A stretch of 64,000 nucleotides of DNA from a virus (lineage: Duplodnaviria; Caudoviricetes). Position numbers and translations under genes: made by a program. The notes beneath the pieces are model-generated. The model ran no database searches. It saw nothing but the letters and a program-made list of their open reading frames with translations, and had not been told where the DNA came from. Position 1 is the stretch's first letter. Every line of letters begins with the position of its first letter. The stretch covers positions 96,001 to 160,000 of the IMG/VR virus record IMGVR_UViG_3300024493_000235, one strand, 5' to 3'. This document shows, one piece after another, positions 4,429 to 45,555 of the stretch.

Positions 4429-4438
4429 TATATATCAT
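4429..4438 (+). promoter_or_regulatory. Early/middle promoter motif TATATATCAT
   Basis: Recurrent TATAYATMAT motif just upstream of the AAGGAG RBS of 4458..4853. Confidence 0.7.
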
Positions 4439-43075: not shown

Positions 43076-43936
43076 TCAGTATCGAAGGACATCTTCGACA
43101 GACGATTTTTTTTGCGGTATTTTCGCTCTGTGAGAAAGAGTTCCCATTGTAATACTCCTTCCTATATCTTGAAATTTCAATGCTGTAAATGTTGATATAA
43201 CATGTGGAAGATCCAAAGCTTTCATGAATTTTAAGTTTGCAAGATCGGCCATCTGATCCCCTGTAGAAAGTCTGTTTAAATAATGTCTGTATGGAACCAT
43301 AAGATCTTTAACATACCGAGATTGGGCTGCTATCATTATTTCTAGTACAGCGGCATTTGTGCTAAAGTTTACACCATTTATTTGTGCGCTGCCAAATACA
43401 AGATCCGCAATTTCTGTGTATTTAACAATTGGAGGAAGGAAAGATTTCATGACAATATTCATAAATTTTCCTGCAACATCGGATTGTTTTGGTATTGTGA
43501 CATTCTTTATAAAAATATCACCTTTTTTATATCCAAGTACATAACACTGATGCTCTTCTTCTCCGGATAAACTCATATTACGCTTGAATATATCAGATGG
43601 GATTGTGACCAATGTGGACGGATACATGTACCTAGTTGTATAGTTACTTGGTGTATTATCCGGCCTATCGGGAATTGTATCCCAAATCTTTAGTTGAAAT
43701 ATTCCATATGTATATATTTCTCTTCCGTTTATTGCCATATTTTTTCTTGTAAGGCTTTCTGATGGAATATAAATTTCCATATATTCACCTATGAAAATCA
43801 CTTGACTTTCTTTATTTTTTTGAAAGTACATATGTATCGGCAATTTTGTTTTGACATTCTTTTTGTTGGATAAAATTCTATCAGCAAGTCCACCTTCCAT
43901 TGATATAACATAATCTGCAACGGACATTTCTTCCAT
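43076..43936 (-). CDS. Probable C-terminal beta' fragment of the split virion multisubunit RNA polymerase
   Basis: GVNFSTNAAVLEIMIAAQSR and STFTALKFQDIGRSI...SSVEDVL align by eye with the beta' C-terminal GVKINDKHIEVIVRQM and SFISAASFQETTRVL...LKENVI. Late promoter and ISMEG propeptide site. Confidence 0.6.
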   Translation of the reverse strand: MEEMSVADYVISMEGGLADRILSNKKNVKTKLPIHMYFQKNKESQVIFIGEYMEIYIPSESLTRKNMAINGREIYTYGIFQLKIWDTIPDRPDNTPSNYTTRYMYPSTLVTIPSDIFKRNMSLSGEEEHQCYVLGYKKGDIFIKNVTIPKQSDVAGKFMNIVMKSFLPPIVKYTEIADLVFGSAQINGVNFSTNAAVLEIMIAAQSRYVKDLMVPYRHYLNRLSTGDQMADLANLKFMKALDLPHVISTFTALKFQDIGRSITMGTLSHRAKIPQKKSSVEDVLRY

Positions 43937-43952
43937 TTTGAAACTCCTTAAT

Positions 43953-43964
43953 TACATAGTTGTT
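43953..43964 (-). promoter_or_regulatory. Late promoter AACA-N6-TA
   Basis: AACA-ACTATG-TA. Confidence 0.8.
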
Positions 43965-43966
43965 GA

Positions 43967-44176
43967 AAATAAAAATAGCGTACCCTATAAAGGGTACGCC
44001 ATAGTGGAAAATCCTCAAGTGACGCTCTATTGATCTCGTAACACGAAACCGCTTAACCTACCTTGTTTGAAAAAGAAACCGTGTTTGGGACAATGTTTCT
44101 ATAAACCGAAAGGAGATAGGTTAAAAGCTACACTTGATTACGCGGCACAGCCTATATGATTAGACCAAAACCCATT
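43967..44176 (-). ncRNA. Putative structured late non-coding RNA (~200 nt)
   Basis: Late promoter at 44176..44187, terminator gcgtaccct/agggtacgc (43978..43999) with a T-run on the minus strand, no RBS or ORF. Nested helices UCAAGUG/CACUUGA, UUAACCUA/UAGGUUAA, AGAAAC/GUUUCU and GGUUUCG/CGAGAUC. Confidence 0.65.
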
Positions 44177-44187
44177 ATCGTATTGTT
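44176..44187 (-). promoter_or_regulatory. Late promoter AACA-N6-TA (no protein gene before the next terminator)
   Basis: AACA-ATACGA-TA, back-to-back with TATATATCAT at 44230. Confidence 0.7.
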
Positions 44188-44229
44188 AAATTATTATTGC
44201 AAAAGAAGTGAAATAAAGTATTATACAAT

Positions 44230-44239
44230 TATATATCAT
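44230..44239 (+). promoter_or_regulatory. Early/middle promoter motif TATATATCAT
   Basis: Upstream of the AAGGAG RBS of 44265. Confidence 0.7.
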
Positions 44240-44264
44240 TTATGTAGGAAGGAGATATACGCGT

Positions 44265-45011
44265 ATGATATTAACTTTACTTGTGTCTTTTGTTCAATCA
44301 TTCGTGGACTTGGAAGAAGATCGATGGTTGGACGGAATCGCAGCAGAAAATGCGAAGCGGAAAATTAAGGGAGAAAAACCTGCTGTTAAAGAGCAGCATC
44401 CTAACGTAGAGAGGAGACAGCAACAACCTGATTCCTCCTATCGCACGCCGAATCAAGTTAGTTCTGAAATTCCTATTCCGGGAGCTGGGAATTTCATAAC
44501 GTTCTGCAGCGATCACTGGCTTGCTAAAATGAACCCCAATCATTTTAACGAGCTGCGCACGATGTTTAAGGAACAGTTCCTTAAGCACGTGAACGAAAAG
44601 TATTTAAGCACTCTTTTTAACCGTGTAAAACACGCCATTGAGTGCACACTGGCAACACAGTTAGAATTTAAATTGGGGGACAACGTGTTCACGACAGTTA
44701 CAAGCTTCAAGGCGTTACAAACAATGCTTGAAGAAGCTGACAGGGACGCCCGCCTGTGGAATGGAAAGAAAGAATTGGCGCAAAACGACACCCTTATGAA
44801 TGTCATCGTTTGGACTGTCGTTGACCTCGAGTTCGCCAAACATTTAGGCGGAAAAAATCTGTCGAAACACGACCTTACAGAAAATGACAAAAACATCGTA
44901 TTCCCGACGATGATTCTTGCGGACTGCTATAACACGGCGTTAGCCCTGTTGGATTGCGCTCCTGTCGTTTTCAAAGTTCCAGAAAATCCGTCAACCCCAG
45001 CGGGTACTTAG
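44265..45011 (+). CDS. Hypothetical protein
   Basis: 248 aa, RBS, terminator at 45019..45049. Confidence 0.7.
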   Translation: MILTLLVSFVQSFVDLEEDRWLDGIAAENAKRKIKGEKPAVKEQHPNVERRQQQPDSSYRTPNQVSSEIPIPGAGNFITFCSDHWLAKMNPNHFNELRTMFKEQFLKHVNEKYLSTLFNRVKHAIECTLATQLEFKLGDNVFTTVTSFKALQTMLEEADRDARLWNGKKELAQNDTLMNVIVWTVVDLEFAKHLGGKNLSKHDLTENDKNIVFPTMILADCYNTALALLDCAPVVFKVPENPSTPAGT

Positions 45012-45018
45012 GACGGGT

Positions 45019-45049
45019 TAACGCAAGGGGTTCTTCCACCCTTGCGTTA
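45019..45049 (+). terminator. Intrinsic terminator hairpin
   Basis: taacgcaaggg...cccttgcgtta followed by a T-run. Confidence 0.8.
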
Positions 45050-45063
45050 TTTTTTTTGATGAA

Positions 45064-45075
45064 AACATTTATATA
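45064..45075 (+). promoter_or_regulatory. Late promoter AACA-N6-TA
   Basis: AACA-TTTATA-TA immediately after the terminator. Confidence 0.6.
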
Positions 45076-45224
45076 AGAGAAGATGGATTTTTATGAAAAA
45101 AGTCGTTTTAGTCCTCATTATGGGGAGTGGCTAGGATATATACAATAATGCTTATTTTATTAGCAGAACTTGTGGTCTAAAACACCTAAAATCGCCTCTT
45201 AATCTATGTAAAAAGGATTCAAAA

Positions 45225-45521
45225 ATGATATCAATAATCATACTTGTCATATTATTCATCGTAGCCGAATATTTTCTCATATTATACAGCGCAAAGAAAA
45301 AAGGTTTTATTATTCGAAAAGAAACCTATCAAGTTCCAAGACAAGGATGTCCTTATATAGTCTATAAGATTGTCTACACAGTTAACGGAGTATTTAAAAA
45401 AGCATCATACTCCATCGAAGTATCCAAAAACGATTTTGATAAAGCAAAATATGGAGACATAATCACAATTACAACTGATAATAAAGGCAAACAAACTGTT
45501 GATATTATTTCTAGCACATAA
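45225..45521 (+). CDS. Small membrane-anchored protein
   Basis: N-terminal TM helix followed by a beta-rich domain, AAGGA RBS. Confidence 0.65.
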   Translation: MISIIILVILFIVAEYFLILYSAKKKGFIIRKETYQVPRQGCPYIVYKIVYTVNGVFKKASYSIEVSKNDFDKAKYGDIITITTDNKGKQTVDIISST

Positions 45522-45522
45522 A

Positions 45523-45555
45523 AATAATGTAGGGGCATAATGCCCCTACATTATT
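45523..45555. terminator. Bidirectional terminator hairpin
   Basis: taatgtaggggca-taa-tgcccctacatta between convergent genes. Confidence 0.8.

What the first reader, a model, noticed from the sequence alone, without database searches (positions are those of the whole stretch)
43967..44187. Candidate novel ~200-nt structured late ncRNA upstream of the RNAP fragment gene
Seen: a complete minus-strand transcription unit (consensus late promoter 44176..44187, terminator 43978..43999 plus T-run) with no RBS and only a 7-codon ORF. It folds into a closing helix (UCAAGUG..GCUUU / AGAGC..CACUUGA), a long interrupted arm (UUAACCUA/UAGGUUAA, CCUU/AAGG, GUUU/AAAC, AGAAAC/GUUUCU) and a side hairpin GGUUUCG-UGUUA-CGAGAUC. 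Its G-U pairs form only on the minus strand, which agrees with the promoter orientation. The next gene has its own promoter, so this is not simply a leader. Inference: a phage-encoded functional RNA. Size and rod shape suggest a 6S-like RNAP decoy, a virion- or packaging-associated RNA, or a protein sponge/antitoxin. I do not recognise the family.
Basis: partly seen in the sequence, partly recalled or inferred. Interest (0 to 1): 0.8.

Follow-up and report, generated by a model that had tools for sequence, protein, structure and literature searches.

The report
Orphan candidate small RNA, jumbo phage
An uncultured AR9-like giant phage has, in front of a virion RNA-polymerase gene, a roughly 205-base stretch that looks like a small non-coding RNA gene (promoter motif, stable fold, strong terminator, no protein); no relative carries it, so it remains a reasonable but unproven candidate of a kind already seen in other giant phages.

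Summary
The 328-bp divergent spacer 43937..44264 carries four features on the minus strand. There is an AR9-type late-promoter core (AACAATACGATA, 44187..44176). There is no RBS and only a 7-codon ORF. There is a well-defined three-way-junction fold, and a strong one-directional intrinsic terminator (44002..43975 plus T-run).

The support is uneven:
- The fold beats shuffles (z -6.3 whole unit, -4.8 rod alone) and is unusually well defined. It still only sits in the top ~1% of native windows of this genome.
- The promoter has the core only: 8.3 bits against a median of 15.3, and about 110 sites that good arise by chance per genome.
- The terminator is the best evidence. Only 2 of 23 divergent spacers hold one, and this promoter core is the only one upstream of it on that strand.

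Rfam gives nothing. No homolog or paralog was found by patterns, BLAST or a covariance model, so covariation cannot be tested. The relatives (43-56% protein identity) have short spacers without the unit.

Most likely it is a lineage-specific late small RNA of the "start site then terminator" class described in phages 201phi2-1 and phiKZ. Its function is unknown. The 6S-like, pRNA-like and antitoxin readings find no support. A leftover of genome rearrangement remains a serious rival. Another reader of this scan noted the same stretch.

The parts
44176..44187 (-). Late-promoter core AACAATACGATA (AACA-N6-TA). The predicted start site is the last A, at 44176.
   Evidence: Sequence and the AR9 motif definition (PMC5312081). 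In this genome the motif is enriched near gene starts: 50 sites against 8.2 expected. This copy scores only 8.3 bits against a median of 15.3.
44152..44175 (-). 7-codon ORF (MGFGLII, then stop) that starts one base after the predicted start site and has no RBS.
   Evidence: Read from the sequence. No other ORF with an RBS lies on either strand of the spacer.
44140..44175 (-). 5' hairpin of the predicted RNA (nt 2-37).
   Evidence: Minimum-energy and centroid fold.
44015..44137 (-). Three-way-junction core. It comprises the closing helix UCAAGUG/CACUUGA plus GCUU/GAGC, the long arm 44124..44053 and the side hairpin 44050..44032.
   Evidence: -38.2 kcal/mol, z -4.8, MFE frequency 0.12. Ensemble diversity is 6.4 against a median of 25 in native windows. 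The inverted repeats are listed as I1, I4 and I5.
44108..44118 (-). Anti-Shine-Dalgarno-like stretch UAUCUCCUUUC inside the long arm. It is the complement of GGAAGGAGAUA at the RBS of the neighbouring plus-strand gene (44247..44257; G-C, G-U, then 9 Watson-Crick pairs).
   Evidence: Direct repeat D4, AAGGAGATA at 44110-44118 and 44249-44257. The same 9-mer lies at the RBS of 6 genes, so it is not specific.
44085..44089 (-). Apical loop CCCAA of the long arm, giving a UCCC motif in a loop.
   Evidence: Fold. The comparison with C-rich loops of sRNAs from Gram-positive bacteria is from memory and was not tested.
43966..44002 (-). Intrinsic terminator: 12-13-bp stem with 6 G-C pairs and loop UUAU, then UUUUUAUUUU. 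It works on the minus strand only.
   Evidence: It is one of only 2 terminators found in 23 divergent spacers.
43953..43964 (-). Own late promoter (AACAACTATGTA) of the downstream virion RNAP beta'-C-like gene 43076..43936.
   Evidence: 10.8 bits. Relatives carry an equivalent promoter directly before the gene.
44230..44239 (+). TATATATCAT-class promoter of the divergent ORFan gene 44265..45011. It marks the upstream limit of the unit.
   Evidence: The same 10-mer lies 14-100 nt upstream of about 20 gene starts in the genome. The blastn matches of the spacer to other spacers are confined to this element.

Best explanation
It is a lineage-specific, stand-alone small RNA gene of an AR9/PBS1-like jumbo phage. 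The phage's non-virion RNA polymerase would start at A44176, downstream of an AACA-N6-TA late-promoter core. It would transcribe about 205 nt that fold into a 5' hairpin plus a well-defined three-way junction, and stop at a strong intrinsic terminator just before the separate late promoter of the virion RNAP beta'-C-like gene. The sequence shows the promoter core, the fold, the terminator and the absence of coding capacity. Transcription itself, stability and function are inferred. By position and architecture it belongs to the short 'start site then terminator' RNAs mapped upstream of structural genes in jumbo phages 201phi2-1 and phiKZ. My best guess at a mode of action, held weakly at about 15%, is a trans-acting base-pairing RNA that contacts ribosome-binding sites through its CUCCUUUC stretch or its UCCC loop.
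For: The late motif is really used in this genome: 50 gene-proximal sites against 8.2 expected, and 133 genic sites against 285 expected. The candidate is the only AACA-N6-TA/G on the minus strand between the bidirectional terminator at 45524..45554 and the orphan terminator. The terminator is strong and one-directional, and it lies in a divergent spacer where it has nothing else to terminate; only 2 of 23 such spacers hold a terminator. The fold gives z -6.3 (whole unit) and -4.8 (rod), and no shuffle reaches it. Ensemble diversity is 6.4, matched by 0.3% of native windows. The transcribed part has 40% G+C, against 33% for spacers overall and 24% for the promoter part. There is no coding capacity and no remnant protein similarity. 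Without the unit the spacer would be about 118 bp, a normal length for divergent spacers here. Precedent: 11 sRNAs under 250 nt in 201phi2-1, defined by a start site closely followed by a terminator, 8 of them upstream of genes (PMC11512511).
Against: No homolog or paralog was found anywhere, so conservation and covariation are untested. Five relatives at 36-56% protein identity (L003-L006 at 52-56%, L002 at 36%) have 75-112-bp spacers without the unit; in the sixth (L007, 44%) the upstream gene ends 9 bp before the gene. The promoter matches only the core (8.3 bits), and orphan cores in spacers occur at the chance rate, 28 against 24.4. Several other spacer windows fold as well. The strand asymmetry is ordinary. 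No outstanding target appears among the phage's own translation start regions.
Confidence: 0.45

Rival explanations
1. It is a non-functional leftover. Genes around the beta'-C-like gene have been reshuffled. The 'terminator then late promoter' cassette may once have followed a co-oriented upstream gene that was displaced by the ORFan module 44265..45521. That would leave an orphan terminator and decaying sequence, in which an AACA-N6-TA core and a good fold occur by chance.
For: Gene order differs in every relative. In L007 and AR9 a co-oriented gene lies directly upstream of the beta'-C-like gene; in L002 the co-oriented upstream gene ends with a terminator followed by the late promoter. The neighbouring 248-aa gene is an ORFan, so the slot is an accessory, fast-changing one. 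The promoter is core-only and orphan cores occur at the chance rate.
Against: No trace of coding similarity remains in any frame. Spacers in this genome are compact (median 60 nt), so 210 useless bases would be unusual. The structure is both stable and exceptionally well defined: 0 of 350 native windows match both measures. Core motifs are about two-fold depleted where they are not wanted, although part of that may be dinucleotide bias.
Confidence: 0.27
2. It is a second, upstream late promoter with a long structured leader for the beta'-C-like gene. Most transcripts stop at the terminator, giving a 5'UTR-derived short RNA, and some read through, so the unit tunes the supply of the virion RNAP subunit in cis.
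For: Some AR9 genes have two start sites, and AR9 5' UTRs reach 491 nt (PMC5312081). Eight of the 11 sRNAs of 201phi2-1 arise by premature termination in 5' UTRs. Another late promoter in this window (45064..45075, 15.5 bits) lies 150 nt before its gene.
Against: The gene has its own promoter after the terminator, and relatives make do with that alone. With the terminator's 3' arm blocked, the best alternative pairing of its 5' arm gains about 1.5 kcal/mol, against about 18 for the terminator. No riboswitch or leader family matches.
Confidence: 0.15
3. It is a protein-binding decoy or a virion/packaging RNA, as the first reader proposed (6S-like RNAP decoy, phi29 pRNA-like, sponge or antitoxin RNA).
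For: The size is about 205 nt, with a stable three-way junction and late timing inferred from the promoter type. The side-hairpin loop shows 5'-UGUU-3', the same letters as the template-strand element 3'-UUGU-5' that the AR9 non-virion RNAP reads in uracil-DNA (PMC9209446).
Against: No 6S or pRNA hit even at E 10. There is no large central bubble. The two hairpin loops (CCCAA and GUU/UGUUA) are not complementary to each other, read from the fold. There are no tandem repeats. Neither neighbouring protein matches a defence or toxin family. One UGUU in 210 nt is what base composition predicts (my estimate: about 1.2).
Confidence: 0.06
4. It is a DNA-level element or a plus-strand feature, for example a cruciform or protein-binding site, or a degenerate group II intron fragment.
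For: The main helices are Watson-Crick and therefore also form on the plus strand (z -2.8). There is a weak plus-strand match to group-II-D1D4-7: 19.8 bits against a gathering score of 34, E 0.065.
Against: The Rfam match is far below threshold and has large deletions, and there is no intron domain V/VI and no reverse transcriptase. There are no iterons. The terminator and the promoter core are both minus-strand specific. The minus-strand fold is 8.5 kcal/mol better.
Confidence: 0.05

Closest known systems
Short 'start site then terminator' sRNAs of jumbo phages (201phi2-1 sRNA001-011, including sRNA005 upstream of tail gene gp277; the phiKZ sRNA upstream of gp182) - PMC11512511
   Same: Under 250 nt, no CDS, a phage promoter followed closely by an intrinsic terminator, placed just upstream of a late structural gene in a jumbo phage that encodes its own multisubunit RNAPs.
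   Different: Those were found by transcript mapping, and sRNA005 is conserved in sequence and fold across four phages. This one is predicted from sequence only and has no detectable relative. It lies in an AR9-like phage, not a phiKZ-like one, and the downstream gene keeps a separate promoter.
AR9 late transcription units (AACA-N6-TA/G promoters read by the non-virion RNAP) - PMC5312081, PMC9209446
   Same: Identical promoter core, with the predicted start at the last A. The motif is demonstrably used in this genome.
   Different: The AR9 study reports internal and antisense late promoters but describes no stand-alone non-coding unit; my term search of that paper found no 'noncoding', 'non-coding' or 'small RNA'.
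6S RNA (Rfam RF00013 and relatives)
   Same: Similar length; a proposed link to RNA polymerase.
   Different: No model match. The fold is a three-way junction without the open-promoter-like central bubble.
phi29 prohead RNA (pRNA, Rfam RF00044)
   Same: Phage-encoded RNA of about 120-170 nt built on a three-way junction.
   Different: No model match. The loops are not mutually complementary. pRNA is known only from phi29-like podophages, which pack DNA with a different motor arrangement (from memory).

Membership tests
AR9-type late promoter | Core AACA-N6-T(A/G), with the last base as the start site | tested here: met
   AACAATACGATA at 44187..44176. Definition from PMC5312081.
AR9-type late promoter | The motif is actually used by this phage | tested here: met
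   50 gene-proximal sites against 8.2 expected; genic sites 133 against 285 expected.
AR9-type late promoter | Fit to the extended preferences of this genome's gene-proximal sites | tested here: inconclusive
   8.3 bits against a median of 15.3, and about 110 sites as good in shuffled genomes. The conserved promoter of the next gene itself scores only 10.8.
Jumbo-phage short TSS-to-TTS sRNA (operational class of PMC11512511) | Promoter followed by a terminator within 250 nt, with no CDS between them | tested here: met
   About 205 nt between 44176 and the T-run; the only ORF is 7 codons.
Jumbo-phage short TSS-to-TTS sRNA (operational class of PMC11512511) | Enriched discrete transcript in infected cells | not testable with these tools
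   The phage is uncultured and no RNA data are at hand.
6S RNA | Match to the Rfam 6S covariance models | tested here: not met
   No hit at gathering score or at E up to 10.
6S RNA | Rod with a large central bubble that mimics an open promoter | tested here: not met
   The fold is a three-way junction, and the largest unpaired stretches are 5 nt.
phi29 pRNA | Rfam model match, and two mutually complementary loops for ring formation | tested here: not met
   No Rfam hit. Loops CCCAA and GUU/UGUUA are not complementary (read).
Type III antitoxin RNA (ToxI-like) | Tandem repeats of about 36 nt next to a ToxN-like endoribonuclease gene | tested here: not met
   No tandem repeats. The neighbours have no PADLOC, Pfam, PHROG or NCBIfam match of that kind.
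Riboswitch or attenuator leader | Known aptamer, or an antiterminator that competes with the terminator | tested here: not met
   No Rfam match. The alternative pairing gains about 1.5 kcal/mol against about 18 for the terminator.
Any conserved structured RNA family | Homologs with compensatory base changes | tested here: inconclusive
   No homolog was found in IMG/VR, JGI metagenomes, GTDB genomes, GenBank phages or five related records, so the test could not be run.

The most novel reading that the evidence does not exclude
The RNA is a late decoy for the phage's own transcription or translation machinery. In one version its UGUU hairpin loop mimics the uracil-containing template-strand promoter element that an AR9-type non-virion RNAP reads. 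In the other its CUCCUUUC stretch mimics the 3' end of 16S rRNA and soaks up ribosome-binding sites. Either would be a new way for a phage to switch gene expression late in infection.
Probability: 0.04. Interest if true: 0.8.

Novelty: new member of a known kind. Interest (0 to 1): 0.33.

Why it matters
Small RNAs of jumbo phages have only recently been seen in transcript maps, none has a known function, and none has been described for the AR9/PBS1-like uracil-DNA group. If this unit is transcribed it would be a clean case to study: a single promoter type, a single terminator, a compact well-defined fold and no overlap with any gene. As it stands it is a sequence-only candidate without relatives, so it adds one entry to a list and does not open a new question.

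Tried and rejected
Known families:
- Rfam on the whole window at gathering scores, and on 43800..44400 at E up to 10, gave only a sub-threshold plus-strand group II fragment and a terminator look-alike.
- No tRNA or tmRNA was found.

Homolog search:
- GenBank phages by blastn gave nothing.
- Exact and gapped patterns gave nothing in IMG/VR or in JGI metagenomes.
- GTDB genomes gave nothing, then one 19-mer hit in a cyanobacterial contig. My estimate is about 4 such hits by chance, and the covariance model does not match there.
- A single-sequence covariance model (R1) found no paralog in the own genome and nothing in G001, G002, AR9, Machias or the fetched loci.
- Relatives found through the downstream protein lack the unit.
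- The terminase gave no relatives.

Other tests:
- tblastx and sensitive blastn of the spacer against the genome and loci showed no relic coding signal.
- Target search: the best perfect complement is 15 nt inside a gene. Duplex energies against all 258 translation start regions show no outlier, the best being 2.9 sd from the mean.
- The neighbouring proteins have no informative family or homolog.
- I first thought the TATATA element might drive the RNA from the minus strand. It turned out to be the TATATATCAT-class promoter of the plus-strand gene.

Full report
CONTEXT
The window is bases 96001-160000 of a 268,442-bp IMG/VR virus record that CheckV rates 91% complete. The phage is a distant relative of the uracil-DNA jumbo phages AR9/PBS1. 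The gene just downstream of the finding (43076..43936, minus strand, 286 aa) matches PHROG 2926, "virion structural protein". It is 27% identical to AR9 g125 and to proteins that Staphylococcus jumbo-phage records annotate as the C-terminal piece of the virion RNA polymerase beta' subunit. That label comes from those records and was not verified here.

The finding lies in a 328-bp divergent spacer (43937..44264). It separates that gene from a plus-strand 248-aa gene (44265..45011), which has a strong RBS and its own terminator but no homolog anywhere.

THE OBSERVATION
All the described elements are present.
- Minus strand 44187..44176 reads AACAATACGATA. This is the AR9 late-promoter motif AACA-(6N)-TA/G, in which the last base is the start site (PMC5312081). 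The template-strand form 3'-UUGU-N6-AU-5' is given in PMC9209446.
- A 12-13-bp hairpin with 6 G-C pairs at 44002..43975 is followed by TTTTTATTTT. On the plus side no T-run follows it, so it terminates minus-strand transcripts only.
- Between promoter and terminator there is only a 7-codon ORF. It begins one base after the predicted start site and has no RBS.
- The 209-nt transcript folds at -68.6 kcal/mol, z -6.3. It forms a 5' hairpin, a three-way junction (closing helix, long interrupted arm, side hairpin), a small hairpin and the terminator.

HOW MUCH OF THIS EXCEEDS CHANCE

The late promoter motif
- I called 258 ORFs in the whole genome and collected AACA-N6-TA sites near starts.
- The motif is clearly the late promoter of this phage. 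It occurs 50 times within 70 nt upstream of a co-oriented start, against 8.2 ± 2.5 expected.
- It occurs 133 times inside genes against 285 ± 16 expected from shuffles within segments. Part of that depletion may be dinucleotide bias.
- Orphan copies in spacers occur at the chance rate, 28 against 24.4.
- A weight matrix built from 43 gene-proximal sites gives the candidate 8.3 bits, against a median of 15.3. Shuffled genomes hold about 110 sites that good.
- So the promoter has a perfect core and an A at +2, but nothing more. The conserved promoter of the next gene itself scores only 10.8.

The terminator
- This is the strongest single argument.
- Among 23 divergent spacers only two contain an intrinsic terminator.
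- The 2,894-aa gene further upstream on the minus strand ends in its own bidirectional terminator at 45524..45554.
- Between that terminator and the orphan one, the candidate is the only AACA-N6-T(A/G) on the minus strand.

The fold
- The rod alone (44138..44013) gives -38.2 kcal/mol, z -4.8 on the minus strand, against -29.7, z -2.8 on the plus strand.
- The MFE structure holds 12% of the ensemble. Ensemble diversity is 6.4, while native windows of this genome have a median of 25 and only 0.3% are as low. None of 350 native windows matched both the energy and the definition.
- Judged by GC-corrected energy alone, however, the rod is in the top 1.2% of native tiles. It ranks about 7th among 630 terminator-free spacer windows.
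- The 8.5 kcal/mol strand difference is matched by 14% of windows, so the G-U argument carries little weight.
- The transcribed part has 40% G+C, against 33% for spacers overall and 24% for the promoter part.

IS IT KNOWN, AND DOES IT HAVE RELATIVES?
- Rfam 15 gives nothing at gathering scores in the whole window.
- At E up to 10 it gives only a sub-threshold plus-strand fragment hit (group-II-D1D4-7, 19.8 bits against 34) and a terminator look-alike.
- There is no tRNA or tmRNA.
- The downstream protein has only four relatives at 43-56% identity among 5.8 billion proteins, plus one IMG/VR contig whose gene aligns at 36% over its full length.
- In five of these relatives the spacer before the gene is 75-112 bp; in L007 the upstream gene ends 9 bp before it. 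Where there is a spacer it carries a late promoter directly before the RBS (AACATTTTAGTAA, AACAACTACATAA, AACATTTATATAA, AACACTGGAATAA) and holds no extra unit.
- The flanking genes differ in every relative, so this is a fast-changing slot.
- Pattern scans of IMG/VR, JGI metagenomes and GTDB genomes found no relative. The same holds for blastn against GenBank phages, and for a single-sequence covariance model run over the own genome, two IMG/VR relatives, AR9, Machias and all fetched loci.
- The one 19-mer hit, in a cyanobacterial contig, is within my chance estimate and does not match the model.
- The unit is therefore an orphan, and covariation, the decisive computational test, cannot be run.

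WHAT IT IS NOT
- Not a leader with a switch. With the terminator's 3' arm blocked, the best alternative pairing of its 5' arm gains about 1.5 kcal/mol, against about 18 for the terminator. The gene also has its own promoter after the terminator.
- Not a recognisable gene relic. tblastx and sensitive blastn of the spacer match nothing except the plus-strand gene's promoter element.
- Not 6S-like, since it has no central bubble and no model hit.
- Not pRNA-like beyond having a three-way junction.
- Not a repeat-type antitoxin. No toxin or defence family lies next to it.

HINTS ABOUT FUNCTION (WEAK)
- The long arm contains UAUCUCCUUUC. It is complementary over 11 pairs to the RBS region GGAAGGAGAUA of the divergent neighbour. 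The core 9-mer AAGGAGATA also lies at five other RBSs, and the stretch is mostly paired inside the rod.
- The apical loop shows UCCC.
- The side-hairpin loop shows UGUU, the letters of the template-strand promoter element. One UGUU in 210 nt is what composition predicts.
- No phage translation start region stands out as a target.

VERDICT
The best reading, at about 45%, is a lineage-specific late small RNA. It would belong to the operational class already mapped in jumbo phages 201phi2-1 and phiKZ: a start site closely followed by a terminator, under 250 nt, often just upstream of a structural gene (PMC11512511).

The rivals are:
- a leftover of rearrangement that keeps an orphan terminator (about 27%);
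- a second promoter with a terminated leader (about 15%);
- a DNA-level or plus-strand element (about 5%).

This is a fair candidate, ordinary in kind and unproven. A transcript map or closer relatives would settle it.

Noticed in passing
window 44230-44239 and 4429-4438; about 20 sites genome-wide: Besides the late AACA-N6-TA motif, the phage has two further upstream motif classes. (G/A)TATATATCAT has about 20 copies, 14-100 nt before starts. TTTTnnGTATATATAAT has about 25 copies. They probably mark two non-late promoter classes, whereas AR9 has a single early consensus.
   Followed up: partly
whole genome (G000): The late-promoter core AACA-N6-TA is about half as frequent inside genes as mononucleotide shuffles predict (133 against 285). 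That fits selection against stray late promoters, but dinucleotide bias was not controlled.
   Followed up: partly
G000:C1:189119-189405 (outside the window; L017): This is the only other divergent spacer with a one-directional terminator (plus strand, 189354-189380). The 277 nt before it fold at -82 kcal/mol. It has no AACA motif and no Rfam hit, and the small minus-strand ORF beside it may be spurious.
   Followed up: partly
window 45064-45224: A strong late promoter (15.5 bits, 45064-45075) sits right after the terminator of gene 44265..45011. It lies 150 nt before the next gene (45225..45521, 98 aa, with a hydrophobic N-terminus). A 13-codon ORF starts at 45093.
   Followed up: no
G000:C1:218524-218815 (outside the window; L016): An unusually G+C-rich (0.53-0.57) spacer with two minus-strand terminators and the strongest folds of any spacer (-60.8 kcal/mol per 126 nt). 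No Rfam match.
   Followed up: partly
G000:C1:48215-48325, minus strand (L024 16-126): A sub-threshold Rfam match to SraG RNA (34.5 bits against a gathering score of 50, E 0.0033) in a 368-bp spacer.
   Followed up: no
window 43076-43936: The AR9 homolog of this gene (g125), together with g126, carries the most abundant antisense RNAs of AR9 (PMC5312081). I did not examine whether this phage has an antisense promoter there.
   Followed up: no
G000:C1:198851-198865 (outside the window): A 15-nt perfect complement between RNA nt 94-108 (CACGGUUUCUUUUUC) and the mRNA of gene 198510..200753, about 340 nt into the gene. BLAST E is 0.04. Probably chance.
   Followed up: no
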